A stretch of 64,000 nucleotides of DNA from assembly GCA_963823665.1 (NCBI GenBank), contig CAWGMQ010000010.1, forward strand, positions 160,001 to 224,000, given 5' to 3'. Numbering within the stretch: the first letter of the stretch is position 1; every line of letters starts with the position of its first letter. This document shows positions 2,259-30,018 of the stretch, piece after piece. The notes beneath the pieces were generated by a model, which made no database searches, was not told where the DNA came from, and saw only the letters and a list, made by a program, of their open reading frames with translations. The stretch comes from an uncultured Planctomycetota bacterium (GTDB lineage Bacteria > Planctomycetota > Planctomycetia > Isosphaerales > Isosphaeraceae). Both the position numbers and the translations under genes were made by a program.

Positions 2259-2375
2259 ACTATTTATTTCGCCGCCGGACCGCCGGACTTCGGTGCTGCC
2301 CCCATTGTCGCCTTTCGCTCCGCGAAAGGATTCACTATTTATTTCACCGCCGGACCGCCCGCCTTCGGTGCGGCA
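2259..2375. repeat. REP-B hairpin (GTCG-CCTTTCGC-TCC-GCGAAAGG) flanked by a ~40 bp direct duplication of the pilM 3' end
   Basis: 2259-2296 vs 2334-2371 match at 35/38; insert 2301-2333 holds the hairpin 2311-2329. Confidence 0.85.
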
Positions 2376-4953: not shown

Positions 4954-5063
4954 GATATTGCTGTTGTGAAACGTCGAACTACCCGATCGACCCAGAGTCG
5001 CCTTTCGCTCCGCGAAAGTGCATCCCGATATTGTTGTTGTGGAACGTGGAACTACCCGATCGA
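4954..5063. repeat. REP-B element (36 bp) flanked by a 37 bp direct duplication
   Basis: gatattgctgttgtgaaacgtcgaactacccgatcga (4954-4990) vs 5027-5063 match at 34/37; insert cccagagtcgcctttcgctccgcgaaagtgcatccc (4991-5026). Confidence 0.85.
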
Positions 5064-12872: not shown

Positions 12873-14511
12873 GCAATCCGAAGCCCCGCGTACCGTCACC
12901 GATTTCGCGGCAGAATTCCTCGCCGACAATGCGGTGGCCATGATCGTCAAGCAGCACCTTTCGCCGGACGACATCGAGAATCCAGTGATCTTTCCACCGA
13001 CGTACTTGAGATCCAGAAACAAGGGACAGGCTGAAAAGGAGCCTGATGGAGAAGACAAGAAGGATAGGAAGAAGGATCAACAGCCGCAGTCTGTCTACAA
13101 CCTCAGCGACCTCGGCGACAGCCGAAATGTCGTCGATATCGACAGTCCACAGTCGGACGGGAACCGAAGCGAGCCACTCTTCAGATCCGAAGCGCTCAAA
13201 CACCTCGTGCCCCAAATTGTCATCGACGTCAATGGCACCCCGGTCAACATTCTTGATGCGGGCCACCGCGCGGGAGATGCCGTGGTTCGACTGTCGAGCC
13301 TCGCCGCTGAATTTCACACAGCATTCGAGCGTGCTGGTCTTGGCGACCACTCAGTGCTTGCCTCGCTCGCACCGACTTCGCTGCTCTACGGGGTTTGGGA
13401 TTCCCGATCAACTCAGACGAAGCTCCAACGCATCATCAAGGCGAGCGTACGCGCTGAGAATGTTCGAGAACTGACGCGGTCTGCAACATTCATCCCGGCA
13501 GCCGACTATGTTGCGGTCGGCGCTGTGAAGGAAGAATTGAACGCCGGCGACGGAGACAGCAATCCCTTGTCGTCGGAGGGAATGCTGCATGCACTCGCCA
13601 GTCAAACGCTCGGTGGCGTGCGCCTCACGAACCCAAAACTGCTCGTTCGATCAATAAAGATTAATCTCGTTGCGTTGCGACAGCTCAATGCGATCGTCGA
13701 ACCAGGCAAGCCGCCTGCTCCCCCCGCACTAAACAACGCAACCGAAGAGCAAAAGTTGACGTACACGAAGCAGATCGAGGAGTTTGAGGCTGCCAAGAAG
13801 AAGGCGGCTCTCGACTCACAACTTCGTACCGACGCGCTGCGCAAGTACATCCTCGGTCTGGCGCTGACTGTCGCAACGTCTGATCCAGACCTGAACCTTC
13901 GCGAAGGCTGTAATCTCCGCATTGTTGATGATCAGTTCCTTCTCATTCGGCATCGGAAAAATGATGAATCCATTGAATTCGACACGAACTTGGTGAAGAC
14001 GTTCGCCGACGACGGGGCTAAGGCGTTCTTTAAAGCAATGAAGATCGAGTTCGACAGGAAAGATCACCTTGACGCGAGGTTCGAGAAGGACGTCGCGGAG
14101 GAATTTCTCGGCTTAACGGACTCGAAAGGAAAGCTCAGCGGTGGAGAACGAGACAAGGCTCGCAAGATCGGGCCGATCACACGCGCAACAATGGATGAAT
14201 ACTCGCGACAACGGAGGAAGCGGGAGAACGCGGGTGATCCGATGGTCAAACTCCGCACGTTGATCGAGAAGGTGAAGCCGGTTTCCGGAGGAAGGAAGCT
14301 AAGTGCAGACGCGGAGAGACTCCGCGTCCACCTAACGGACAATGCGCCTGACACAGAAGATCTTAAAGACATACATGAACGGATACTCGGTATTCTCGAT
14401 TGCAACGATCCGCCCGAAGCAAAGGTCACGGCATTGAAGTCGGTCGTGTCGCCAGCGGAAAATCAGCCCGCTCATGCGCCAAACCCGGCAACTTCTGGGG
14501 TTAGCCAATGA
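12865..14511 (+). CDS. csb1: Type I-G backbone Cas7u (Csb1, GSU0053 family), long at 548 aa
   Basis: ATG after AAGGAG; VIFPPTY, IDSPQSDGNRSE, GHRAGDA, APTSLLYGVWDSR, LREGCNL. Confidence 0.9.
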   Translation: MSEQSEAPRTVTDFAAEFLADNAVAMIVKQHLSPDDIENPVIFPPTYLRSRNKGQAEKEPDGEDKKDRKKDQQPQSVYNLSDLGDSRNVVDIDSPQSDGNRSEPLFRSEALKHLVPQIVIDVNGTPVNILDAGHRAGDAVVRLSSLAAEFHTAFERAGLGDHSVLASLAPTSLLYGVWDSRSTQTKLQRIIKASVRAENVRELTRSATFIPAADYVAVGAVKEELNAGDGDSNPLSSEGMLHALASQTLGGVRLTNPKLLVRSIKINLVALRQLNAIVEPGKPPAPPALNNATEEQKLTYTKQIEEFEAAKKKAALDSQLRTDALRKYILGLALTVATSDPDLNLREGCNLRIVDDQFLLIRHRKNDESIEFDTNLVKTFADDGAKAFFKAMKIEFDRKDHLDARFEKDVAEEFLGLTDSKGKLSGGERDKARKIGPITRATMDEYSRQRRKRENAGDPMVKLRTLIEKVKPVSGGRKLSADAERLRVHLTDNAPDTEDLKDIHERILGILDCNDPPEAKVTALKSVVSPAENQPAHAPNPATSGVSQ

Positions 14512-16084
14512 CGTATCTACTCCTCACTGTCCGTTTCCTCGACGACCGTTACCATGGTCTTCTCGATCGCGGCGGGCCGCCGGAGTGGCCGCCTTCGCCA
14601 TTTCGATTGTTTCAGGCGTTGGTTGCCGGCGTGGCACGGCGGGGGGAACTTGTCTTTGGCGAAGATGTCCCGTCGAACGCGAGATTCACGCCCATCGGGC
14701 GAGCGCTCGTTTGGTTGCAGCGGCACACGCTGGAGCATCCCCCTATCATCATCGCGCCGAAATCAAAGCCCGGCCGGGCAATCACACGTTTCGTGCCCAA
14801 CAACGACGGCGACACGATTTTCGATCGGCAAGAACGACTGACCGCGAAGCCGACGTTTCCAACATTCTTCATCCTCGAAAGAGAACCAGACGCCGGAAGT
14901 GCATTTCGTCTGGGACATCGAAGGCAAGAGCGGTTGTCCAGTGGCGGGCATCGAGCGGGCCGCTCGCTCGCTGACGACACTCGGCTGGGGCATTGACATG
15001 GCTTTCGCCGACGCGCGCCCGGCGACCGAAGAACAGCTTCAACAACTTAAAGGCGTTCGCTGGTATCCCAAGAAGGCTGCCAGCCGGGGCGAAGGAATGC
15101 TGCGAACGCCGACCTACGACGAGAAGACGGGAGAATGCACCCTTTCCAATTTACGGCACTGCCACGAGAACCTTCATGAACCGAATCGAACATGGGCAGC
15201 CGCTCAGGACGGTGGATAAACCGAAGACCTTCGACCGAGTTCTGTACGCCAGCGTCGAACGGCCGCTCGGCAAGCCGCGATGCGTATTCAAACTCATCGA
15301 CCAAGACGACGACGCCTACCCCTACGCACACGCGAAACTGATCCACGTGGCGGGCATGCTGCGCCACGCGGCGATCAAACTAATGACTCGCAACCTACCG
15401 GCGCTCGTACTTGATCCGGATTGGGTAAATCGCGTCGTCCGAGGGAAGCGGGACGAGTCGACCGCAGCCGAGCACAAGCAGTTCTCTTATGTTCCCCTTC
15501 CCACGATCGGCCATCCGCACGCCGATGCGATGATCCGCAACGTCATGATCGTAGCGCCGCTCGGGATCGAGCGCGAGTTGAACTACCTGGCCGACCAACT
15601 CAACGGCCAGGCCCTCGAGCCCGAAGGCGAAGATGAACCGCGCAAGAGGGACTCGGCTCCGGCTGTGTCACGCCGCATCGAGCTCCAAAAGTTCACGCCG
15701 CCGCCCGGAAAGTTCATCGACAAGTGCTACCTCGGCACGTCCCGCGTCTGGCAGACCGTCACCCCAGCCATCCTGGACGGACACAACGATAAGAAAGCCG
15801 AAAAGACGATCAAACTCATCCAGGCGGCGCTTCAACGGTCCGGTATCGAAACCCCGTGCACCTTCACTTGGCAATCGACGCCATTCCTCAAGAATTGCCT
15901 CAGCGCCCACAAGTACGATCGAGACGGCCGGCACACCGGCTACCACAGACCGGCGCATCTCCGCGACCAGACCGCCGTCCACGTGCGTCTGACATTCGAC
16001 CACCCCGTTCCCGGCCCTCTGACCATCGGCGCCGGTCGACATTGCGGCTTTGGACTTTTCTCCGCGATTCAAGACAACCAGTAG
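14508..16084 (+). CDS. csb2: Csb2 (Cas5/Cas6 fusion, GSU0054 family); two apparent +1 frameshifts (~14877, ~15169)
   Basis: EWPPSPFRLFQALVA, LGWGIDMA, PLPTIGHPHADA, WQTVTP, GPLTIGAGRHCGFGLF spread over three consecutive ORFs; 1577-2=1575 nt restores one frame. Confidence 0.9.
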
Positions 16085-16178: not shown

Positions 16179-16751
<573 letters not shown>

Positions 16752-16763
16752 GAGGACCCAACA

Positions 16764-19079
16764 ATGTCGCAACTTCCAATCATCCCCGAACCAGGCACGA
16801 ATGCCGCCCCCGTGCCCGACCCTCTCCCCGATTACCTCCCAGCCCGCATGCTCAACGAATTCGTCTACTGCCCGCGCCTGTTCTACTACGAGTGGGTCGA
16901 AGGCCTTTTCGCCCACAACCGCGAGACCGTCGAGGGCGCGCTCCGCCACGCCAAGCTCGACAGCCAGCAAGACGCGCTCACACCGGCCGATGAGCTGGCC
17001 CCCGAAGATCGCGCCCACTCCCGCTCGGTAATGCTCTCCAGCGACACACACAAGCTCATCGCAAAAATCGACCTCGTCGAGGCCGAAGGCTCAACAGTCA
17101 CCGCCGTTGACTACAAGCGCGGCGCCCCCCGCCAGCGCACCAACTCCGGCGACCTCGAAGCCTGGCCCGCCGACCGCGTCCAGGTGGCCGTCCAGGCGCT
17201 CGTCCTCCGCGACAACGGCTACTCATGTCAGGAGGCCGTGGTCTACTACGTCAAAACCAAGCAGCGCGTCCGCGTCGCCATCGACGACGCCCTGATCGCA
17301 GAGACGCTCGCCGCCGTCGCCGACGCGCGTGCCGCCGCCCTCGGCGAGATCCCAACACCGCTCGTCGACAGCCCCAAGTGCCCCCGCTGCTCATTGGTCG
17401 GCATCTGCCTCCCCGACGAAACCCGCTTCGTCCAGGCCGTCGACGAAACCACGGCTGCCTCCGGACCCGAAGCTTCCCCCATTGTCGCCCTTCGCTCCGC
17501 GAAGGGACCTCTGCCGTCCACACACCAACCCGAAGCGTCAGCGAGGACTCTCATTGAATCCGGCTCCGCCAGTGTCCGATCTCACATTTCCACCACACCA
17601 GAAACCGCCGAATCCGACCCACCCGCCCCCCGCCGCTTGGTCGCCGCACGCGACGACCTGCGCCCACTCTATCTCAACGCGCAGGGTCTCACGGTCGGCA
17701 AGTCCGGCAACCTCTTGAAGGTCAAGGAAGGCGATTCGGTTGTCCAGGAAGTTCGCATCGGCGAGACCTGCCAGGTCAACGTCTTCGGCAGCATCCAGCT
17801 CACCACGCAGGCGATCCAGACCCTCTGTCAAAACGAAGTGCCCATCGCCTACTTTTCCCAGGGAGGGTGGTTCTACGGCATGACCCAAGGGCTCGGTGTG
17901 CGCAACATCTCGCTCCGACGCGAGCAGTTCCGGCTCGCCGACGATCCGGAGTTCTGCCTCGGCATCGCCCGCAGACTTGTTGCCGGCAAGATCCGCAACC
18001 AGCGCACGATGCTCCAGCGCAACCATGTTCAGCCGCCCGCCGTGGCGATCGCTCAACTCAAGTGCCTGTGCGACGACGCGGAAAACGCCGAGTCGAGCGC
18101 CACACTCCTCGGCATCGAAGGCAACGCCGCTCGCATCTATTTCGAGAACTTCTCAGGCATGATCAAGGCCGGCAACGCGCGCACGCCCAATGAGGACCTG
18201 GCCGAGCAGCTCTTCGCACTGGTCTTCGGAGAGTCGGCGACCGACAATCCCATCCCAGAAGACGATCAGGGCAGCAGCACGAAGCCGGTTGCAAGCGGAA
18301 TTCGCGACGATGTAGCAGGCACACTCCGTGTGCCGCCCGCGCCGAGCAGCAGCACGAAGCCCGATGCAAGCGGAATTCGCGGCGATGTAGCAGGCACACT
18401 CCGTGTGCCGCCCGCGCCGAGCAGCAGCACGAAGCCCGATGCGACCGGAACCGGACACCAGAGTGGCCTTTCGCTCCGCGAAACTGCGTCCCGTACCACT
18501 TCGAAGCCCAAAGCAGCCGCAATGGGAGGGCAAGGCCCCGACCAAGCCACCGCTCGAGACGCTACCGCCGTGACGAAGACCGGTGCAGGCGCCAGGGAGC
18601 CCGAGCTCAACTTCGACTTCACCCACCGCAACCGCAGGCCGCCGCGCGATCCGGTCAACGCTCTACTTTCGCTGGCCTACAGTGTGCTGGCGAAGGACCT
18701 GACAATCGTGTGTCACGCGGTCGGCTTCGACCCTTTCATCGGAATGTTTCACCAGCCGCGCTTCGGCCGCGCTCCGTTGCCGCTCGATCTGATGGAGCCT
18801 TTTCGCCCGCTGATCGCGGATTCGGCGGTCCTCTCGGCGATCAATACGCGCATGGTGACGCCCAAGGACTTCATCCGGGCCGGCCAGTCCGTGGCGCTGC
18901 GGCCGGACGGCCGCAAGGCTTTCTTCCGCGCGTATGAGCAGCGGATGGATACGCTTGTGACGCACCCACTCTTCGGCTACCGTTTGAACTACCGGCGCAT
19001 GCTGGAGATCCAGACACGTCTTCTGGCTCGAACGGTGACAGGCGAGATCAACACGTATCCGGTCTTCGTCACTCGCTGA
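16764..19079 (+). CDS. cas1: Cas4-Cas1 fusion (GSU0057-type) carrying in-frame REP-derived insertions
   Basis: Cas4: FVYCPRLFYYEWVEG, KIDLVE, VDYKRG, CPRCSLVGIC. Cas1: GKIRNQR, LLGIEGNAARIYF, RNRRPPRDPVNALLSLAY, LDLMEPFRPLIAD. Confidence 0.95.
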   Translation: MSQLPIIPEPGTNAAPVPDPLPDYLPARMLNEFVYCPRLFYYEWVEGLFAHNRETVEGALRHAKLDSQQDALTPADELAPEDRAHSRSVMLSSDTHKLIAKIDLVEAEGSTVTAVDYKRGAPRQRTNSGDLEAWPADRVQVAVQALVLRDNGYSCQEAVVYYVKTKQRVRVAIDDALIAETLAAVADARAAALGEIPTPLVDSPKCPRCSLVGICLPDETRFVQAVDETTAASGPEASPIVALRSAKGPLPSTHQPEASARTLIESGSASVRSHISTTPETAESDPPAPRRLVAARDDLRPLYLNAQGLTVGKSGNLLKVKEGDSVVQEVRIGETCQVNVFGSIQLTTQAIQTLCQNEVPIAYFSQGGWFYGMTQGLGVRNISLRREQFRLADDPEFCLGIARRLVAGKIRNQRTMLQRNHVQPPAVAIAQLKCLCDDAENAESSATLLGIEGNAARIYFENFSGMIKAGNARTPNEDLAEQLFALVFGESATDNPIPEDDQGSSTKPVASGIRDDVAGTLRVPPAPSSSTKPDASGIRGDVAGTLRVPPAPSSSTKPDATGTGHQSGLSLRETASRTTSKPKAAAMGGQGPDQATARDATAVTKTGAGAREPELNFDFTHRNRRPPRDPVNALLSLAYSVLAKDLTIVCHAVGFDPFIGMFHQPRFGRAPLPLDLMEPFRPLIADSAVLSAINTRMVTPKDFIRAGQSVALRPDGRKAFFRAYEQRMDTLVTHPLFGYRLNYRRMLEIQTRLLARTVTGEINTYPVFVTR
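18271..18592. repeat. In-frame mini-array inside cas1: five copies of a ~40 bp local unit interspaced by REP-A, REP-A, REP-B and an unidentified segment
   Basis: Unit core cgaag at 18280, 18355, 18430, 18502, 18574 (periods 75, 75, 72, 72); REP-A at 18312 and 18387, REP-B at 18458-18493. Confidence 0.8.
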
Positions 19080-19085
19080 TCTGAT

Positions 19086-19190
19086 CTGATCCGCTCCGGC
19101 TCAAAACGGGAACCCGCCAGCCATCGTCGCCCTTCGCTCCGAAGGGATTTCTTCCGCTGATCCGCTCCAGCTCAAAACGGAGCCCGCCAG
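19086..19190. repeat. REP-B variant (36 bp) flanked by a 34-35 bp direct duplication just after the cas1 stop
   Basis: ctgatccgctccggctcaaaacgggaacccgccag (19086-19120) vs 19157-19190; insert ccatcgtcgcccttcgctccgaagggatttcttccg. Confidence 0.85.
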
Positions 19191-19425: not shown

Positions 19426-22400
19426 CTTTCCGCGCTCAACCGAGCGCGGCTCCATTGAAGCGAGACGCCGAAGAACGAGAACATCGAGGGCGGACGACTT
19501 TCCGCGCTCAACCGAGCGCGGCTCCATTGAAGCGGTATCGACCCCCGCGCGGCCCAGCTTAATTCCTAACTTTCCGCGCTCAACCGAGCGCGGCTCCATT
19601 GAAGCCATCTAAAAGATTTCGCGGACCGCTTGCATGCAGCGTCTTTCCGCGCTCAACCGAGCGCGGCTCCATTGAAGCCGGCGAGATCGCAGGCGCTCGA
19701 GCTCTCGCTCGAGCCTTTCCGCGCTCAACCGAGCGCGGCTCCATTGAAGCCAGTCCATCGTTCGCGCCGCCGTGAAGCGCGAACTCCTTTCCGCGCTCAA
19801 CCGAGCGCGGCTCCATTGAAGCGACCCACGCGATTTCGATCCCGTCTTTCTGGTGCGCCTTTCCGCGCTCAACCGAGCGCGGCTCCATTGAAGCTCAAAG
19901 GCTTCGTTCCACTCCAGCTCCCCGGCCTGTTCTTTCCGCGCTCAACCGAGCGCGGCTCCATTGAAGCCCGAGTCTCTCCGAGCTGTGGGGGTGGTCGGAG
20001 TTGCAGCTTTCCGCGCTCAACCGAGCGCGGCTCCATTGAAGCCTGGCCGCTTCAGCCAGCAAATCATCGCAAGGGCCCCTTTCCGCGCTCAACCGAGCGC
20101 GGCTCCATTGAAGCCGATCGCCCGGACACGCTGCACTATTGCGACCCGCCCTTTCCGCGCTCAACCGAGCGCGGCTCCATTGAAGCGGGTCTGCGAGCTG
20201 CTCGCGGGTGAGACCCTTGCCGCCGGCTTTCCGCGCTCGAACCGAGCGCGGCTCCATTGAAGCGGGGCTGAGTTTCATCGCACTCCCCGGGGTCGTGAAG
20301 TCTTTCCGCGCTCAACCGAGCGCGGCTCCATTGAAGCTGGCTCGGGTCGCAACGGCAAGAACACGGTCCTTGACTTTCCGCGCTCAACCGAGCGCGGCTC
20401 CATTGAAGCGCACCGCGCCCAACGCGCCGGCCAGCCCCCGGGTGCCCTTTCCGCGCTCAACCGAGCGCGGCTCCATTGAAGCCGATGTAACCGCCCTGGT
20501 TGCCGATCGAGGTGTCGGACTTTCCGCGCTCAACCGAGCGCGGCTCCATTGAAGCATAAAGGGTTTCCGCGAAGGCGTCGGCGCTTTCACGGAGCTTTCC
20601 GCGCTCAACCGAGCGCGGCTCCATTGAAGCGTCTGCCGGTTCATTCCGCGCGAGCCCGCGAGACATCCTTTCCGCGCTCAACCGAGCGCGGCTCCATTGA
20701 AGCCTGGCCCACGGCCTGATTGCGATGCCATTCGATTTCTTTCCGCGCTCAACCGAGCGCGGCTCCATTGAAGCGTGGCATGTGGCGAGCCTGGCAGCGG
20801 AGAGATCGAGACTTTCCGCGCTCAACCGAGCGCGGCTCCATTGAAGCTTGATTACCTTATCGGCGTGGTCGGCTGGCCACATCCTTTCCGCGCTCAACCG
20901 AGCGCGGCTCCATTGAAGCGGCTCCGCTCTGGCCGGCCTGGGCCGGGGTTCGCCTGCTTTCCGCGCTCAACCGAGCGCGGCTCCATTGAAGCAGGGCGGC
21001 TCACGCTGGCCCAGCTCAATTTCCTCCTCCTTTCCGCGCTCAACCGAGCGCGGCTCCATTGAAGCAAGATCAAGCCCCGCATTGACTCCGCGGAAAAGAT
21101 GCCTTTCCGCGCTCAACCGAGCGCGGCTCCATTGAAGCATGCAGCGCTAGAGGCACTGGCCACACACCCGCACATCCTTTCCGCGCTCAACCGAGCGCGG
21201 CTCCATTGAAGCGACATGTTGTTGCTTGGCCTCCGCCTGGGCGAGACGAACTTTCCGCGCTCAACCGAGCGCGGCTCCATTGAAGCCTCGCGACTCAGCA
21301 GCTTCCGAACAACTTCACCAAGGCTTTCCGCGCTCAACCGAGCGCGGCTCCATTGAAGCCTTGTGCCACTTCTCGGACGCTGTTGCTTCCAAGTCCTTTC
21401 CGCGCTCAACCGAGCGCGGCTCCATTGAAGCTTTGACCTCCGCCTGGCCTCGGCCGCGACGCTCACCCCTTTCCGCGCTCAACCGAGCGCGGCTCCATTG
21501 AAGCGAACAGCTCGTCGCGCGTCTTGGGCAGCCCTAAAAGCCTTTCCGCGCTCAACCGAGCGCGGCTCCATTGAAGCCTCGAGTCTCATAAACACTTGGT
21601 TCGCTATCGATGGGCTTTCCGCGCTCAACCGAGCGCGGCTCCATTGAAGCTCCGAGTAGCCGTAGCAAGCCGTAGCGTGCCCGCCAGCTTTCCGCGCTCA
21701 ACCGAGCGCGGCTCCATTGAAGCATGAGGCTGTAACGATGCTTGCCGTTCCGCGTGTTGACTTTCCGCGCTCAACCGAGCGCGGCTCCATTGAAGCTGGA
21801 AAGAGACTCCGCGGAGATTGGCCCCGCTGAAATCCTTTCCGCGCTCAACCGAGCGCGGCTCCATTGAAGCTGATCAGGTGATATTCACGCCGCACACGAT
21901 CGGTGCTTCTTTCCGCGCTCAACCGAGCGCGGCTCCATTGAAGCCCCCTTTAACGGGAGCGGGGCGTAGATCCCCTGCCATTCTTTCCGCGCTCAACCGA
22001 GCGCGGCTCCATTGAAGCGCCACTGATCAGCACGGGACCGTCTACCAGGCCATGCCTTTCCGCGCTCAACCGAGCGCGGCTCCATTGAAGCCTTGATTCG
22101 CTCAGCGGATTCGTGGGCAACGAGTCCCTTTCCGCGCTCAACCGAGCGCGGCTCCATTGAAGCACCATCGGATGGGCGGGGAAGCCATACCGCAGATCGA
22201 CTTTCCGCGCTCAACCGAGCGCGGCTCCATTGAAGCCGGCCCACTCTCGCGCGTATCTCTGGAGATCCGCTTCTTTCCGCGCTCAACCGAGCGCGGCTCC
22301 ATTGAAGCTTGGCGTATGTGCTGTCCGTGGTTCTGGCCGTGGTCGACTTTCCGCGCTCAACCGAGCGCGGCTCCATTGAAGCTCCTGATCAGCGCACAGG

Positions 22401-25400
22401 CCCTTGCGGGTCCGGTACTTTCCGCGCTCAACCGAGCGCGGCTCCATTGAAGCGGCGAGCTGCTGAGCAAGGTGCGTGCGGCGATCCAGGCGCTTTCCGC
22501 GCTCAACCGAGCGCGGCTCCATTGAAGCCGCCCTGACCGACGCGGATCTCTCCGAGCTGCTCTACTTTCCGCGCTCAACCGAGCGCGGCTCCATTGAAGC
22601 GGGCAGGCCGCCGAACGCCGTGATCAGCGTCTCGATCTTTCCGCGCTCAACCGAGCGCGGCTCCATTGAAGCGAGTCGCTTATTGGGAAGGGAGCCGCCC
22701 CACCGCCCCTTTCCGCGCTCAACCGAGCGCGGCTCCATTGAAGCGGCATAGGAGTCGGCGATGGAAGGCCCCGCTTGCGGCTTTCCGCGCTCAACCGAGC
22801 GCGGCTCCATTGAAGCGGGTCCGAGTTCGTGCGACCGGCCCGACACCTTCATCCTTTCCGCGCTCAACCGAGCGCGGCTCCATTGAAGCCCGACGAGCCC
22901 GGTGGCGGGGAACGGCACTGGCCGGGCTTTCCGCGCTCAACCGAGCGCGGCTCCATTGAAGCTGATGGCCGGGATGTCGACCAAAGAGCAGGTCATACGC
23001 TTTCCGCGCTCAACCGAGCGCGGCTCCATTGAAGCAGCTACTACCCCAATCGGATATCGGCATTTTAGCATCTTTCCGCGCTCAACCGAGCGCGGCTCCA
23101 TTGAAGCGTCATCACCACGGCCGGTGAGGAGGCCCAAGGCCCTTCTTTCCGCGCTCAACCGAGCGCGGCTCCATTGAAGCAGAGCATCGCGCAGTGGGGG
23201 GACTGTCCCGAGACCGAACTTTCCGCGCTCAACCGAGCGCGGCTCCATTGAAGCGATGGATGGGACCGCGGCCGGTTTGGCACAAGTCATACCACCTTTC
23301 CGCGCTCAACCGAGCGCGGCTCCATTGAAGCTGATGCGGCCCAGGAAATCCCGCTTTACGTCGACTCCTTTCCGCGCTCAACCGAGCGCGGCTCCATTGA
23401 AGCGGCTGTTTTCGGCCGCAGAATTGGCGAAAAACGAGCGACTTTCCGCGCTCAACCGAGCGCGGCTCCATTGAAGCGAGTTGTCTACCGGGCACTTCCA
23501 GGAGACGACCTTGACTTTCCGCGCTCAACCGAGCGCGGCTCCATTGAAGCGCCCACCTGCCCCTTGATTGGAGCCGCCCCATTGCTCCTTTCCGCGCTCA
23601 ACCGAGCGCGGCTCCATTGAAGCTATCCGGGCATGTTCCCGAACAGTACGGGTGTGCTTCTTTCCGCGCTCAACCGAGCGCGGCTCCATTGAAGCATCTC
23701 GGCATGCTCGCCCGGTGGGAGAGTAATATTGACTTTCCGCGCTCAACCGAGCGCGGCTCCATTGAAGCCCGGCGACCCGCTCCACATTCTGCTGGTCGTC
23801 TCCCCGCCTTTCCGCGCTCAACCGAGCGCGGCTCCATTGAAGCAACATAGGCCTGCTCGAGCAGTTCAGTGTCGCCAACTTTCCGCGCTCAACCGAGCGC
23901 GGCTCCATTGAAGCGGACAAAGCAGTACTCGATCAGTTGTCGGAGTCGGCGACTTTCCGCGCTCAACCGAGCGCGGCTCCATTGAAGCAGGAGCCCGGCC
24001 TGCTTCCCGTACGCTCGCGTTTTCCTTTCCGCGCTCAACCGAGCGCGGCTCCATTGAAGCACGCGGGCCCCGAGGCACTCGTCGAGGCGCTTGGTCTTTC
24101 CGCGCTCAACCGAGCGCGGCTCCATTGAAGCCCGTAAGGCCTGCGCCGGTTTGTGCCACTGTTCGGACCTTTCCGCGCTCAACCGAGCGCGGCTCCATTG
24201 AAGCTGATGAGTCTTGAATCAGCCGGACGGGCCTCCCAGTCCTTTCCGCGCTCAACCGAGCGCGGCTCCATTGAAGCCGACGTTTCCTCTGGCTGCGGTC
24301 TCGCCTTTGCCATGCCTTTCCGCGCTCAACCGAGCGCGGCTCCATTGAAGCTCGATGAAAACCGAGAGGGCAACCCGAAAACGGAGACTTTCCGCGCTCA
24401 ACCGAGCGCGGCTCCATTGAAGCGAGACGCCGAAGAACGAGAACATCGAGGGCGGACGACTTTCCGCGCTCAACCGAGCGCGGCTCCATTGAAGCGTTTC
24501 TGATACATGCAATAGACGGGCCAGTTAACGCTTTCCGCGCTCAACCGAGCGCGGCTCCATTGAAGCTACGAGTCGCCCAGGTTCATGAACAGCGTCCCGT
24601 CATCTTTCCGCGCTCAACCGAGCGCGGCTCCATTGAAGCCGGCTAAGAAGGTACCAGAACTGGCGCTCGCTGAACGTCTTTCCGCGCTCGACCGAGCGCG
24701 GCTCCATTGAAGCCGATAGTCGTCCACGTCCCGCCGATATCGACGCCGACCTTTCCGCGCTCAACCGAGCGCGGCTCCATTGAAGCGGGCGTGATCGTGC
24801 CCGGTTCGATGAATGCCGCGTTCTTTCCGCGCTCAACCGAGCGCGGCTCCATTGAAGCATGCTATCCTTGATGACCTTCCGTGCGAGCTTGACCCTTTCC
24901 GCGCTCAACCGAGCGCGGCTCCATTGAAGCATATCGGCCCAGCCGTCTGAATCTCAAACGCCTTGAGCTTTCCGCGCTCAACCGAGCGCGGCTCCATTGA
25001 AGCCGAGCTCGGTCGCTATCCGCTCTTGCGTCCACCCTCGGCCTTTCCGCGCTCAACCGAGCGCGGCTCCATTGAAGCATTGCCATGCGCTCGGCTTGCG
25101 TAGCTCTTCCAGCCCCTTTCCGCGCTCAACCGAGCGCGGCTCCATTGAAGCTTGATACTCGCGAAACGATTGGAAGGCCGCGGCATCTTTCCGCGCTCAA
25201 CCGAGCGCGGCTCCATTGAAGCCACTCACCCCACTCGACCACGCCGCCTGCGTTCTGCTTTCCGCGCTCAACCGAGCGCGGCTCCATTGAAGCGACTGCT
25301 GGCGACAGATAGAAAGTGAACGATTCGTACCTTTCCGCGCTCAACCGAGCGCGGCTCCATTGAAGCGAGCAACGCCGCTGGCCAGCCCAGGACGTTGCCG

Positions 25401-28400
25401 TTGCTTTCCGCGCTCAACCGAGCGCGGCTCCATTGAAGCTTCGCGGGCACAACGCCGAACTGGGTGGCGGCTTCCTTCTTTCCGCGCTCAACCGAGCGCG
25501 GCTCCATTGAAGCTCGTCGCACCGTTCAGCGCAAACGAGTCGGCCGCGTCCTTTCCGCGCTCAACCGAGCGCGGCTCCATTGAAGCGCACCGTTGGCGTG
25601 ATCGTGACGACGCCGTTGCCGCCGTCTTTCCGCGCTCAACCGAGCGCGGCTCCATTGAAGCTTGATCGCCGCTGAACACGCCGTCGAGTGTGGCACCTTT
25701 CCGCGCTCAACCGAGCGCGGCTCCATTGAAGCTTGACACGTTCGTGCCGTTCGCGAGCACGGTGCCGGTCCTTTCCGCGCTCAACCGAGCGCGGCTCCAT
25801 TGAAGCGGACGCGATCATAAAGCGCCGCCTCTTCATCGGTTTGAATACTTTCCGCGCTCAACCGAGCGCGGCTCCATTGAAGCACCGCCCGCCCCCCCAA
25901 CCCTAGTGGGAGGATGTGACCTTTCCGCGCTCAACCGAGCGCGGCTCCATTGAAGCTTCCACCACGCGACGAGGTCCGGCGGCCCCTTCCGCTTTCCGCG
26001 CTCAACCGAGCGCGGCTCCATTGAAGCTGCTCACACCGGAAGAACGTGAACGAATCCGCAAGGCTTTCCGCGCTCAACCGAGCGCGGCTCCATTGAAGCT
26101 GCCTTCAACGCGAATTACAACTCTCACGGTGGCGCCTTTCCGCGCTCAACCGAGCGCGGCTCCATTGAAGCCTTTGCCATCGCGTACCCGTTGATCCCTT
26201 TCTCTGCCCTTTCCGCGCTCAACCGAGCGCGGCTCCATTGAAGCTGTTCTGTCTTTTCTCTTTTACTGTGGTGTCGTAGAGCTTTCCGCGCTCAACCGAG
26301 CGCGGCTCCATTGAAGCTGGTGCGCCTGCCAACCGCCCGGCATGGCCTCGGAGACCTTTCCGCGCTCAACCGAGCGCGGCTCCATTGAAGCCATCGACTC
26401 GCTCTCCTCGTAAGTGAGATCCAATGGCTTTCCGCGCTCAACCGAGCGCGGCTCCATTGAAGCTTCATCCGTGGCGCCGACCTGCCGGCCCTTCCCGAGC
26501 CTTTCCGCGCTCAACCGAGCGCGGCTCCATTGAAGCGCGCGGAGCTGAAGCTGGCTGGCTTGCGTGAGCGATCTTTCCGCGCTCAACCGAGCGCGGCTCC
26601 ATTGAAGCGCCTCGTTGCCGCGCCGGCGCATGCCCTGGCATGTCCTTTCCGCGCTCAACCGAGCGCGGCTCCATTGAAGCCTCGTGCCATCCCTTTCTTT
26701 GCGCCAGGAAGATGTTCTTTCCGCGCTCAACCGAGCGCGGCTCCATTGAAGCAACAGCGAGGACGTGGCGGCGTGCGGACTCAAGGAACTTTCCGCGCTC
26801 AACCGAGCGCGGCTCCATTGAAGCCTGAATTCGGCCACCGCCAACACTGAGTCGTGAGCACCTTTCCGCGCTCAACCGAGCGCGGCTCCATTGAAGCGCC
26901 CAGGTCACAACCTTGAACCCCGCGGGGCCATAGCCTTTCCGCGCTCAACCGAGCGCGGCTCCATTGAAGCATTGGTTGGGGCGTCACGGGCATTGCTTGG
27001 TCTCTCCTTTCCGCGCTCAACCGAGCGCGGCTCCATTGAAGCATGAAAAAGCCAAGCCGGAAACGGGCGCGTCAATTGACCGCTTTCCGCGCTCAACCGA
27101 GCGCGGCTCCATTGAAGCGCTGCCGTCAGCAGGCACCCACTCGGGGTTGAGCCGTCTTTCCGCGCTCAACCGAGCGCGGCTCCATTGAAGCCGTGAGCCC
27201 CAATTGCGGGTTAACGCTGCGATCATCAACTTTCCGCGCTTAACCGAGCGCGGCTCCATTGAAGCGCCGACCAGCTTGAGGATGTCATGCCACTTGTCAA
27301 TCTTTCCGCGCTCAACCGAGCGCGGCTCCATTGAAGCCGCCCGACGACGTCGCACCCGCACGCGATGCTTCAGCTTTCCGCGCTCAACCGAGCGCGGCTC
27401 CATTGAAGCCGGTATCCCAGCAGCCCGGCCGGGACCTGGGCCTGCGCTTTCCGCGCTCAACCGAGCGCGGCTCCATTGAAGCCGCGCGCCCCCCAAGCGC
27501 TAGGCCAGGGAATCACCGCCTTTCCGCGCTCAACCGAGCGCGGCTCCATTGAAGCCACGTCGTGCCTCCTTTCGCGGCCTCGATCAAGGCCTTTCCGCGC
27601 TCAACCGAGCGCGGCTCCATTGAAGCTGCGGCACCCGGTCCAGGACCTCGTCGCCGGTCGAGCTTTCCGCGCTCAACCGAGCGCGGCTCCATTGAAGCGG
27701 AGGGCACTGAGATGGCATGGGTCGGTACTGAATATCCTTTCCGCGCTCAACCGAGCGCGGCTCCATTGAAGCTCCTTGCACTTTTCGCACGGCATATCAA
27801 ATTCGACTTCCTTTCCGCGCTCAACCGAGCGCGGCTCCATTGAAGCTTCGTCGCCGGCCGCGATGACGCCATTGGTAACCATGCTTTCCGCGCTCAACCG
27901 AGCGCGGCTCCATTGAAGCTATTTGTAGTCGCTCGGATAAAAGCCTGGCATCTTCTTTCCGCGCTCAACCGAGCGCGGCTCCATTGAAGCACCGACACCA
28001 CGAACATCGAAGAACGCAACCGTGAGCTTTCCGCGCTCAACCGAGCGCGGCTCCATTGAAGCTGCTTTTCGCGGTGAATCAAGTCAACCGAATCAACGCC
28101 TTTCCGCGCTCAACCGAGCGCGGCTCCATTGAAGCGGGCAGGGAAAGGCGCATTTTCGTCGGCGATTTGGAGCTTTCCGCGCTCAACCGAGCGCGGCTCC
28201 ATTGAAGCATCAGGGCTTGGCTGACATCGTCACGAAGATGTCGGACTTTCCGCGCTCAACCGAGCGCGGCTCCATTGAAGCCCTCATGGGCAACGGCCAG
28301 CTCACGGGGCTGGAGAAGGCTTTCCGCGCTCAACCGAGCGCGGCTCCATTGAAGCATCAAGTTGGCTAACGCTGTCGGGCCGCACGATCCGCTTTCCGCG

Positions 28401-28849
28401 CTCAACCGAGCGCGGCTCCATTGAAGCCAGGAGGCGTTCCGAGCTGACCAATCCGCGCGCGACCCGCTTTCCGCGCTCAACCGAGCGCGGCTCCATTGAA
28501 GCGTGATCTGCACCGCCGCGTTGGCCGTTATCTATTCGACTTTCCGCGCTCAACCGAGCGCGGCTCCATTGAAGCGAGGGCGGCTCCCTCTGTTCCGGCC
28601 AGAACGATCGCCTTTCCGCGCTCAACCGAGCGCGGCTCCATTGAAGCCGTCCACTCTTCGCAGTCCACCGATGGCGACGTTGGTGCTTTCCGCGCTCAAC
28701 CGAGCGCGGCTCCATTGAAGCCCTGAACCGAACGTCGGTTACCTTGCTTTCCATAGGCTTTCCGCGCTCAACCGAGCGCGGCTCCATTGAAGCCGCTTCC
28801 GTCGCGTCGGCGACAACGCGGCAGACACGTCTTTCCGCGCTCAACCGAG
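19426..28849 (+). CRISPR. CRISPR array, repeat CTTTCCGCGCTCAACCGAGCGCGGCTCCATTGAAGC (36 bp); by manual count 129 full repeats plus one truncated, about 129 spacers of 35-41 bp
   Basis: Near-invariant repeat with 8 bp stem CCGCGCTC/GAGCGCGG and 3' ATTGAAGC handle (orientation inferred from handle and leader); variants at ~20227, ~24678, ~27230; last repeat 28831-28849 has 19 nt. Confidence 0.98.
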
Positions 28850-28872
28850 AAGAAAGGACATGCATTGTATTC

Positions 28873-28932: not shown

Positions 28933-30018
28933 ATGACAATGCCCCGCGCCCATCTGGTCGATCCCGCCGTAACCCGCTGGTATCACTGCGTCACACGCTG
29001 CGTGCGACGCGCGTTCTTGCTCAGCGAAGGCCCGCTCAACCGCCGAGAATGGATCGAACAACGGCTCCAAGAACTTGCGGGAATCTTCGCGATGTCCGTC
29101 GGCGGTTTCTCGGTCATGGACAACCATCTGCACGTACTCGTGCGCCTCGACCCCGAAGTGGCCAAAGACTGGTCAGACGAAGAAGTCGTCCGGCGCTGGG
29201 CCCGGCTCTTCCCACCACGCGACAAATCCCGCCAGCCCCTCCCGGTCACCAAGGCCTGGGTCGAGTGGCGCTTGCAAGACCCCCAGTGGGTGGCTACAGC
29301 CCGCGAGCGCTTGCAAAGCCTGAGCTGGCTTATGAAATGCCTGAAAGAACCACTCTCTCGCCTCGCCAACCGCCAGGACAACGCCCGAGGCGCATTCTTC
29401 GAGGGACGCTTCAAAAGCATCGCCATCCTCGACGACGAATCCCTCCTGGCAACCTGCGCCTACATCGACCTGAATCCCGTCGCCGCCGGCATCGTCGAAG
29501 TTCCGGAAGCAAGCCCCCACACCTCGATCACCACCCGAATCGAACACGTGAAGGAACAAGGCCGACTAGCCGACCTGACGCCGGTTCCAGCCGGCATCCT
29601 CCATGGACCCAACGGGGCCGAGGTCAATTGCCACGGGCTTCAGCCCTCGGCACCAGACTCAAACGCCGCGTCCGGTCTCGAAGACTCAATCTGGCTCTGC
29701 CCGATCGAAGATCGCCGTTCGCTCGATTCATCACGTGAAGGAATGATCGAGGGCTTCCCGCTCAGGACCTATCTACTCCTGGTCGAATACACCGGCCGGC
29801 TCTTCCGCGACCGCAAGGCCATCATCTCGGCCGAGCTATCAGGCATCCTCCAACGAATTGGCTCGAGCGCAGAGACCTGGTGGGCCCGCCTCGAAAAGCT
29901 CACCAAAGGCCGCCTCCTGGGCCGTTTCTTCGCCGCCAGCCGCTCGCGCCTGCGAGAGACCGCCGCTCGACTCGGCGTCCACCACTTGGCCAACCTCGCC
30001 GGATGCGCGGCACGATAA
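28933..30018 (+). mobile_element. HUH Y1 transposase, REP-associated (RAYT, IS200/IS605 superfamily)
   Basis: WYHCVTRCVRRAFL, HUH motif MDNHLHVLVR, GAFFEGRFKS, catalytic AYIDLNPVAAG; GGAG RBS. Confidence 0.85.

What the first reader, a model, noticed from the sequence alone, without database searches (positions are those of the whole stretch)
18271..18592. CRISPR-like mini-array inside cas1 whose spacers are REP hairpins
Seen: five copies of a ~40 bp unit (gcagcagcacgaagcccgatgcaagcggaattcgcggcgat) at periods 75, 75, 72, 72 bp, all multiples of 3, so cas1 stays open. The intervals are REP-A, REP-A, REP-B (nearly identical to the REP-B at 4992-5027, 13 kb away) and an unidentified segment. Unit identity decays rightwards (copy 4 matches copy 3 at 19/26; copy 5 matches copy 1 at 15/19), like a polarised array. 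Simple slippage cannot place two different REP families between copies of one local sequence. Inference: repeated REP insertion, each duplicating about 40 bp of target, added about 100 aa to a Cas1 loop. Candidate enzymes are a RAYT or off-target Cas4/1-Cas2 integration of REP fragments.
Basis: partly seen in the sequence, partly recalled or inferred. Interest (0 to 1): 0.85.

Follow-up and report, generated by a model that had tools for sequence, protein, structure and literature searches.

The report
REP inserts stacked inside cas1 gene
In this soil planctomycete, short DNA hairpin repeats were pasted again and again into one spot of the CRISPR memory enzyme's own gene, each time copying about 36 bases of the site, a footprint the size of a CRISPR unit that hints this enzyme, rather than the repeats' own transposase, may be spreading them.

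Summary
The feature is real. The type I-G cas4/1 gene carries target-insert-target units (T about 36-40 bp, insert about 36 bp) in a disordered loop. Close homologues form an allelic series: empty (P0003, P0004), two REP-C (G001), REP-B'/REP-B/REP-C at 24-residue steps (P0002), and REP-A/REP-A/REP-B/unknown here, exactly 98 aa longer than the empty alleles. Units 1-2 are one insertion plus a slippage copy (T2 is chimeric). The footprint is not special to cas1: 35 of 214 REP loci sampled in this genus have flanking duplications, 21 at period 70-76, the period of the genome's CRISPR arrays (mode 72-73), with empty alleles in the sister genome. The footprint is shown (about 0.9); the enzyme is inferred. 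Cas1-Cas2 integrating REP fragments (0.45) explains the length ruler, sliding register and polarity. A RAYT or fork-coupled route (0.38) explains better why inserts are almost only REPs, why targets do not resemble the repeat, and a strong strand bias (108 of 122). It is not a CRISPR array. The scan noted this kind of footprint before in other genomes; I found no paper describing it for REPs.

The parts
16764..19079 (+). cas4g/cas1g fusion, 771 aa, type I-G; open frame, Cas1 E452 aligns with G. sulfurreducens E380
   Evidence: NF049935 728 bits vs cut-off 560; alignment to 7MI4; AlphaFold model folded except linker 241-297 and loop 489-609
18169..18270 (+). Clade-specific loop extension before the units; shared with empty alleles, not part of the array
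   Evidence: present in P0002-P0008 and G001
18271..18306 (+). T1, leftmost copy of the duplicated target (right boundary uncertain by up to 4 nt)
   Evidence: in register with the single T of P0003/P0004
18307..18345 (+). X1, 39-nt insert carrying REP-A (GTAG-headed hairpin, core 18312-18334)
   Evidence: 189 REP-A matches in the genome; fold
18346..18381 (+). T2, chimeric: equals T3 at positions 17 and 19, equals T1 from position 23 on
18382..18420 (+). X2, slippage copy of X1 (38/39 identical)
18421..18456 (+). T3
18457..18492 (+). X3, 36-nt insert carrying REP-B; same register as the insert at 4991-5026 (32/36); orthologous insert in P0002
   Evidence: 163 REP-B matches in the genome
18493..18528 (+). 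T4, decayed target copy
   Evidence: 23/36 to T3, p=0.0002 in register
18529..18564 (+). X4, oldest insert; sits where G001 and P0002 have REP-C, but no sequence match is left (6/36; local p=0.96)
18565..18600 (+). T5, rightmost target copy, orthologous to the segment in G001 and in empty alleles
17476..17590 (+). Cas4-Cas1 linker: REP-B variant shared with G001, followed by a REP-G insert that G001 lacks (net gain about 73-75 bp)
16455..16750 (+). cas2-cas4/1 gap: five REP-A copies, each followed by a copy of the local cas2 3' end; G001 has the empty allele
19086..19180 (+). REP-B variant between 24-nt direct repeats, period 71, just after cas4/1
4954..5063 (+). T37-REP-B(36)-T37, period 73; same footprint outside the cas locus
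2259..2374 (+). T(38-41)-REP-B-T, period 75; empty allele in G001
19426..28851 (+). True CRISPR array: 36-bp repeat, 126 spacers of 35-41 nt, periods 71-77 (mode 72-73); no REP-A or REP-B spacer
16185..16475 (+). cas2
   Evidence: TIGR01573 over cut-off

Best explanation
Shown: a surface loop of Cas4/1 has collected REP hairpins by repeated insertion at one target. Each event put in about 36 nt carrying one REP and duplicated about 36-40 nt of target. Order, right to left: X4 (probably a decayed REP-C), REP-B, REP-A; then slippage between T1 and T3 copied the REP-A unit. Only in-frame events (72 or 75 bp) survive in the gene. The same footprint occurs across the genome of this genus. Inferred: the integrase is Cas1-Cas2 (this Cas4/1, or the second Cas1 on contig C8) acting off target. 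REP-bearing fragments, probably released by RAYT nicking or hairpin processing, serve as prespacers; the enzyme's two rulers set insert length (spacer) and duplication length (repeat); the left flank acts like a leader, so new inserts go leftmost. REP spacers in the true array would be self-targeting and are purged, so only the off-target products are seen.
For: Allelic series in one loop with 24-25 aa steps, different REP families, shared inserts on the right and lineage-specific ones on the left. 35 of 214 non-inverted REP-A/B/C loci sampled in G000 and G001 have a flanking direct repeat above the 99th percentile of cross-locus pairs; 21 of 35 at period 70-76 of a 45-110 range; 14 of 20 after a crude filter for repeated targets, binomial p=5e-10. 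Array periods 71-75 in this genome and 72-75 at the second array. Cleanest sites measure T36/X36, T36/X37, T37/X36 with the REP core sliding from 2 to 9 nt inside the insert; the empty/filled pair L239/L206 gives T36, X37. IS200/IS605 enzymes do not make large target duplications (PMC2817692, passage). Cas1-Cas2 makes full-site off-target insertions at repeat-length spacing in vitro (PMC6698737, passages); Cas4/1 spacers are mostly 36 bp (PMC6547450, passages). Ten REP copies lie in the 2.8 kb around cas4/1 against 11 in 180 kb of unselected flanking contig. 0 of 20 single or tandem REP loci in six genomes without a Cas1 hit show the period.
Against: Inserts are almost only REPs: in 1.97 Mb scanned de novo only two or three period 70-76 pairs have a unique non-REP middle, and these may be coding repeats; generic off-target integration should take any DNA. 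Fourteen targets show no likeness to either CRISPR repeat (13.6 vs 13.8 matches at random) and no extra hairpin, whereas described off-target sites resemble the repeat. 14 of 35 significant sites have other periods (57-99), including a clean T41-42/X41-42 pair with an empty allele. About 8 of the 15 REP-A sites are copies of a dispersed REP-D/REP-A/REP-D composite, not separate events (by hand 15 of 27 remain at 70-76). REP orientation follows strand composition in 108 of 122 and 51 of 63 loci, which a double-strand integrase does not explain. Other Cas1-bearing genomes mostly keep REPs as inverted doublets, with one period-72 event in 34 single or tandem loci. The Cas1-negative sample is too small (about 1.6-2 expected), and these assemblies are incomplete. 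Polarity rests on three lineages (about 1 in 18 by chance, my estimate).
Confidence: 0.45

Rival explanations
1. RAYT or fork-coupled insertion without Cas1. The REP-associated tyrosine transposase joins a single REP strand (5'-phosphotyrosine) to a 3'-OH at a replication gap or Okazaki junction; a displaced flap or backward re-priming of roughly 30-42 nt becomes the duplication. The match to the CRISPR period is coincidence, since the REPs are themselves 32-36 nt long.
For: Inserts are nearly all REPs. Strong strand bias specific to this genus. A RAYT-like gene flanked by REP-B exists in G000 (C3:583140-583785) and a REP-A-flanked one in G006. Consensus REP-A is 36 nt and REP-B 32 nt. Duplication length is soft (31-42). 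One T24-REP-T24 site at period 58 in G006, which has no Cas1 hit. HUH chemistry and fork targeting of relatives: PMC8266576 and PMC6006769, passages.
Against: No large target duplication is described for this enzyme family. Several REP families, each expected to have its own RAYT, share one geometry and one target. The G000 RAYT is frameshifted in the assembly, scores below the NCBIfam cut-off as pieces, and G001 has no close relative of it (37%); none of 11 Pfam Y1 loci in G000 is flanked by REP-A or REP-B. Where RAYT-type spread is evident the unit is an inverted doublet: 71 of 108 clusters in 12 other genomes against 10 of 218 here. It does not predict leftmost addition.
Confidence: 0.38
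2. An unknown short-element integrase or host repair pathway with its own 36-40 bp ruler that prefers hairpin DNA.
For: The pattern is concentrated in one genus, so a lineage-specific factor is possible; neither named enzyme explains all features.
Against: No candidate gene was found; the window's other Y1 gene (28935-30017) has no REP flanks.
Confidence: 0.08
3. Slippage or unequal recombination only: an old tandem protein repeat into which REPs later fell without duplication.
For: Units 1-2 did arise this way; tandem REP spacings of 38-46 bp are common; REP clusters reiterated with flanking DNA are known (PMC3733652).
Against: Empty alleles have one T, and each added REP comes with one added T; five empty/filled DNA pairs elsewhere show the same with net gains 69-83.
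Confidence: 0.06
4. Assembly artefact.
For: No read set spans the insert; the assembly has frameshift-like breaks elsewhere (csb2, RAYT).
Against: Independent assemblies (G001, P0002, P0005, P0006) carry REP inserts in the same loop; units 1 and 2 differ at 3 of 75 positions and T2 is chimeric. At most the extra REP-A unit could be in doubt.
Confidence: 0.03

Closest known systems
Off-target (non-canonical) spacer integration by Cas1-Cas2, neo-CRISPR arrays (Nivala, Shipman and Church 2018: not held, seen only as cited in bioRxiv 10.1101/148544 and PMC6698737; in vitro PMC6698737, passages)
   Same: Spacer-sized insert between repeat-sized direct repeats of ordinary DNA; repeated, polarised use of one site.
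   Different: Inserts are host REP hairpins, not arbitrary DNA; targets do not resemble the repeat; the site is inside cas1 itself; strand bias; wild genomes, fixed over evolutionary time.
GTAG-type REPs with RAYT/TnpAREP; REPINs and BIMEs (PMC2817692, PMC3116915, PMC8266576, passages)
   Same: Tetranucleotide-headed hairpins in hundreds of copies; REP-flanked Y1 genes present; the same families form inverted doublets in other planctomycetes.
   Different: Here the spreading unit is a single REP with a long target duplication; the passages read describe doublets and no long duplication, and call the dissemination mechanism unresolved.
Intragenic (coding) REPs and Rickettsia palindromic elements (PMC3733652, sections 15 and first part of 17 read)
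   Same: In-frame REP inserts in flexible loops and linkers, enriched in DNA-handling proteins, 20-82 aa.
   Different: No target duplication or polarised multi-family stack is reported in what I read; 98 aa added at one site, with a documented allelic series.
Type I-G Cas4/1 fusion of Geobacter sulfurreducens (PDB 7MI4, 7MI5, 7MI9)
   Same: Domain order, catalytic motifs, 36-bp repeat system.
   Different: About 140 extra residues between the helix ending FSGM and the RNRRPP motif, and about 60 in the Cas4-Cas1 linker.

Membership tests
CRISPR array | Repeats match the system's repeat and are conserved | tested here: not met
   T copies match the repeat at 8-15 of 36 and each other at 18-34 of 36
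CRISPR array | Unique, foreign-derived spacers | tested here: not met
   X1 and X2 are copies; X1-X3 are host repeats with 160-190 genomic matches
CRISPR array | Repeat plus spacer period of the system | tested here: met
   72-75 against 71-75
CRISPR array | Polarised growth | tested here: inconclusive
   Shared inserts right, lineage-specific left in three lineages; X4 orthology not shown by sequence
CRISPR array | Processed into crRNA | not testable with these tools
   no RNA data examined; Rfam gave no match even for the true array start
Off-target Cas1-Cas2 integration | Duplication of repeat length | tested here: inconclusive
   36-38 in the cleanest sites, but 31-42 over empty/filled pairs
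Off-target Cas1-Cas2 integration | Insert of spacer length, ends not fixed by sequence | tested here: met
   34-39 nt, register of the REP-B core slides from 2 to 9 nt; one 41-42 nt case
Off-target Cas1-Cas2 integration | Target resembles the CRISPR repeat | tested here: not met
   14 targets at random level for both repeats
Off-target Cas1-Cas2 integration | Inserts drawn from arbitrary DNA | tested here: not met
   nearly all are REPs
Off-target Cas1-Cas2 integration | Dependence on cas1; length tracks repeat length across genomes | tested here: inconclusive
   0 of 20 loci without Cas1 hit, 2 of 34 (one event) in other Cas1 genomes; all arrays measured have periods 71-77, so no contrast
Off-target Cas1-Cas2 integration | TTN PAM beside the donor copy | not tested
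   donor copies cannot be assigned among near-identical REPs
REP with RAYT | Tetranucleotide head, hairpin, many dispersed copies | tested here: met
REP with RAYT | Cognate REP-flanked Y1 gene | tested here: met
   REP-B: G000 C3, frameshifted, NF047646 hit below cut-off; REP-A: found in G006 only
REP with RAYT | Inverted doublet (REPIN) as spreading unit | tested here: not met
   10 of 218 clusters in G000 and G001, against 71 of 108 in 12 other genomes
REP with RAYT | No large target duplication | tested here: not met
   35 of 214 loci flanked by direct repeats; empty alleles confirm
Type I-G Cas4/1 fusion | Family model over cut-off, intact catalytic motifs, cas2 and array adjacent | tested here: met
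Type I-G Cas4/1 fusion | Integrase activity with the insert present | not testable with these tools
   only indirect: open frame and a homogeneous 126-spacer array

The most novel reading that the evidence does not exclude
In this planctomycete lineage the CRISPR adaptation complex has become the mobiliser of REP elements: it pastes single REP hairpins genome-wide with repeat-length duplications and has built a polarised neo-array inside its own gene. The growing loop next to the DNA-binding RNRRPP motif may itself loosen target choice, a feedback that would explain why the switch from doublets to single duplicated inserts is concentrated in the clade with the long loop.
Probability: 0.3. Interest if true: 0.88.

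Novelty: new variant of a known kind. Interest (0 to 1): 0.7.

Why it matters
How REPs spread is an open question (stated so in PMC8266576). This locus gives dated before-and-after alleles, a measured footprint and one defined hot-spot target, so the question becomes directly testable with two purified enzymes. If Cas1-Cas2 is responsible, a defence enzyme spreads selfish repeats and remodels proteins, its own included. If RAYT is responsible, it is the first long target duplication for this enzyme family among the papers I read. Either way it shows a route by which a protein loop grows in 24-25 residue steps.

Tried and rejected
Raw-read check: best runs held 15% of the words or less and none spans the insert, so uninformative. 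Whole-genome scan was not possible (genome too large to lay); all genome-wide counts come from about 1.29 Mb of G000 and 0.68 Mb of G001 in 20-kb stretches, most chosen around known REP positions, plus 3-kb loci. X4 as a dispersed family: only weak scattered hits, best E 0.002; as decayed REP-C: no sequence support. Internal control with a different repeat length: the other arrays of G000, G001 and G033 also have periods 72-76. REP spacers in the true arrays: 0 of 126 and 0 of 37 examined. Target motif or hairpin preference: none. DNA for P0002-P0007: not recovered by collection scans, so their inserts are read from protein only. The automatic filter for repeated targets is noisy; both the filtered and the hand count are given. 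Orientation by transcription: weak and inconsistent (21 sense, 43 antisense; 12 and 14) with crude ORF calls. The skew sign flips every 20-60 kb along one contig, so a link to replichores is not shown. No complex prediction was run. The idea that the loop segment is conserved protein was rejected: 74 of 75 parsed homologues have 19-71 aa without repeats, 5 of 80 loci could not be parsed; median 29 aa in 118 of 120 proteins.

Full report
Setting. The window holds a type I-G CRISPR-Cas locus: cas3g, cas8g2, cas7g, a split csb2, cas2, a cas4g/cas1g fusion (16764-19079) and an array from 19426. The closest named homologues are planctomycete.

Observation. Five copies of a local segment T start at 18271, 18346, 18421, 18493 and 18565. 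Over 36 nt they match at 34 (T1-T2), 29 (T2-T3), 27 (T1-T3), 23 (T3-T4) and 19 (T4-T5); copies 4 and 5 exceed shuffled controls (p=0.0002 and 0.003 in register, 0.01 and 0.04 in any register). The intervals are REP-A, REP-A, REP-B and an unassigned 36-mer. REP-A has 189 and REP-B 163 matches in the genome. X1 and X2 are 38/39 identical, and T2 follows T3 up to position 19 and T1 from position 23: units 1-2 are one insertion copied by slippage. The insert lies between the helix ending FSGM and the RNRRPP motif, where G. sulfurreducens Cas4/1 has a few residues; the model gives residues 489-609 pLDDT under 50 and a folded core matching 7MI4. No read set spans it.

Allelic series. Of 75 parsed homologues from a genome collection, 74 have loops of 19-71 aa without repeats and one has 96 aa with a 72-bp repeat; 5 loci could not be parsed. 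The nearest proteins give the history. Measured from GMIK to the FDF motif, P0003 and P0004 have 54 aa and one T, in register with T1 from the left and T5 from the right. P0002 has 128 aa with three inserts at 24-residue steps whose peptides are exact translations of a REP-B variant, REP-B and REP-C. G001 has two REP-C copies 72 bp apart inside a 23-nt direct repeat. The window has 152 aa: 98 more than the empty alleles, equal to 75+75+72+72 bp. REP-C is rightmost in G001 and P0002, and X4 holds that place here, though no sequence likeness is left; REP-B is next in the window and P0002; the leftmost inserts differ. New inserts thus went to the left, as in the true array, but this rests on three lineages, and P0002-P0007 are read from protein only.

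Genome-wide footprint. Of 214 single or same-strand REP-A/B/C loci, 35 have a flanking direct repeat above the 99th percentile of cross-locus pairs (about 2 expected); 21 fall at period 70-76 and 14 at 57-99. About 8 REP-A cases are copies of one dispersed composite; without them 15 of 27 remain at 70-76 (hand count), and a crude automatic filter leaves 14 of 20 (p=5e-10). The true array has spacers of 35-41 nt and periods 71-77, mode 72-73. Empty alleles in the other genome confirm insertion with duplication at L201, L214, L238, L239 and window 2259 (net gains 75, 83, 69, 73, 75-78), partly at L195 and the Cas4-Cas1 linker (72, 73); window 4954 was too diverged to measure. The pair L239/L206 gives T36, X37. 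The cas4/1 region is a hot spot: 10 REP copies in 2.8 kb, five of them one amplified cluster, against 11 in 180 kb nearby. In 12 other planctomycete genomes the same families are mostly inverted doublets (71 of 108 clusters) and none of 37 other loci showed the period; a further sample gave 2 of 16 in G033, which has Cas1 (one event, two paralogues), and 0 of 1 in G055.

Mechanism. Shown: insertion of about 36 nt with duplication of about 36-40 nt, reuse of one target by several REP families, one slippage. Inferred: the enzyme. For Cas1-Cas2 speak the two lengths, the sliding register of the REP core within a near-constant insert, a common geometry across families, leftward growth, the local hot spot, and precedent: full-site off-target integration at repeat-length spacing (PMC6698737, passages), 36-bp spacers for Cas4/1 (PMC6547450, passages), imperfect site fidelity of a type I-G Cas4/1 in vitro (PMC10274657, passages), and neo-CRISPR arrays (Nivala 2018, not held; seen as cited in 10.1101/148544). 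Against it: the middles are almost only REPs, targets do not resemble either repeat, 14 of 35 periods are off, and REP orientation follows strand composition (108 of 122; 51 of 63), also at 3-kb scale (35 of 42; 13 of 15) where other genomes show none (18 vs 16). These points fit a single-strand, fork-linked RAYT step (PMC6006769, PMC8266576, passages); a REP-B-flanked RAYT-like gene exists in G000 but is frameshifted. That the G-rich strand is the leading strand is general knowledge, not tested here, and the skew flips at short range. A hybrid (RAYT supplies, Cas1-Cas2 inserts) is my best reading at 0.45; RAYT alone 0.38. The Cas1-negative sample (0 of 20) is too small, and every array measured has a period of 71-77, so the decisive contrast was not available.

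Comparison with what is known. Coding REPs in loops of DNA-handling proteins and REP clusters repeated with flanking DNA are described (PMC3733652, passages and sections 15 and 17 part 1); the text has no occurrence of 'target site' or 'duplicat'. REPINs are doublets (PMC3116915, passages); IS200/IS605 elements make no large duplication (PMC2817692, passage). Nine library searches listed no paper on REP insertion with repeat-length duplication or on REP integration by Cas1-Cas2; one search returned none. The library lacks most subscription papers, and I read no supplements, where REP-locus tables could bear on this claim. The scan's own notes describe the same kind of footprint in other genomes; I reached the reading before seeing them and did not test them; one pointed to PMC6698737. 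None concerns this genome or a cas1 gene.

Verdict. Real, not a CRISPR array, and not ordinary slippage. It is the best-documented local case of a ruler-like REP insertion process in this genus, with alleles from empty to four units inside the candidate enzyme's own gene. New variant of a known kind; interest 0.7.

Noticed in passing
G000 and G001, 20-kb stretches: The headed strand of REP-A/B/C lies on the C-rich strand in 108 of 122 and 51 of 63 loci, whatever the gene strand; not seen in 34 single copies of other genomes (18 vs 16). Skew sign flips every 20-60 kb on contig C10. Unexplained.
   Followed up: partly
L089:19505-19633, L192:7922-8050, L226:12965-13095, L013, L025: A dispersed composite of about 130 bp, REP-D/REP-A/REP-D, itself with period 71-73; it may be one insertion of REP-A into a REP-D hairpin that then spread as a unit.
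   Followed up: partly
window 14508-16084: csb2 (cas5/6) is split into two frames near 14996; real inactivation of interference or an assembly error.
   Followed up: no
window 28935-30017: A Y1 (HUH) transposase-like gene directly after the last, truncated CRISPR repeat; also at this place in G001; weak Pfam hit, no REP flanks.
   Followed up: partly
G000:C3:583017-583830 (L348): RAYT-like gene flanked by three REP-B copies, broken by a frameshift in the assembly.
   Followed up: partly
L032 (G001), Cas4-Cas1 linker: G001's cas4/1 has a frameshift in the linker region; possibly an assembly error.
   Followed up: no
P0005, P0006, P0007 loops: More distant homologues carry peptides that are translations of REP-A (twice, P0005) and of another repeat family of this genus (P0006) in the same loop; length gains 27-35 aa are not multiples of 24.
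   Followed up: partly
L514, L515 (G033:C2:2194984, 2198211): A T38-REP-B(34)-T38 site, period 72, in another genus that has Cas1; two paralogous copies.
   Followed up: partly
G000:C8:1225043-1242000 (L352): Second CRISPR-Cas locus: 37-bp repeat, at least 87 repeats, periods 72-75, stand-alone cas1; an alternative candidate integrase.
   Followed up: partly
L132 (G006:C30): T24-REP-T24 at period 58 in a genome without a Cas1 hit.
   Followed up: no
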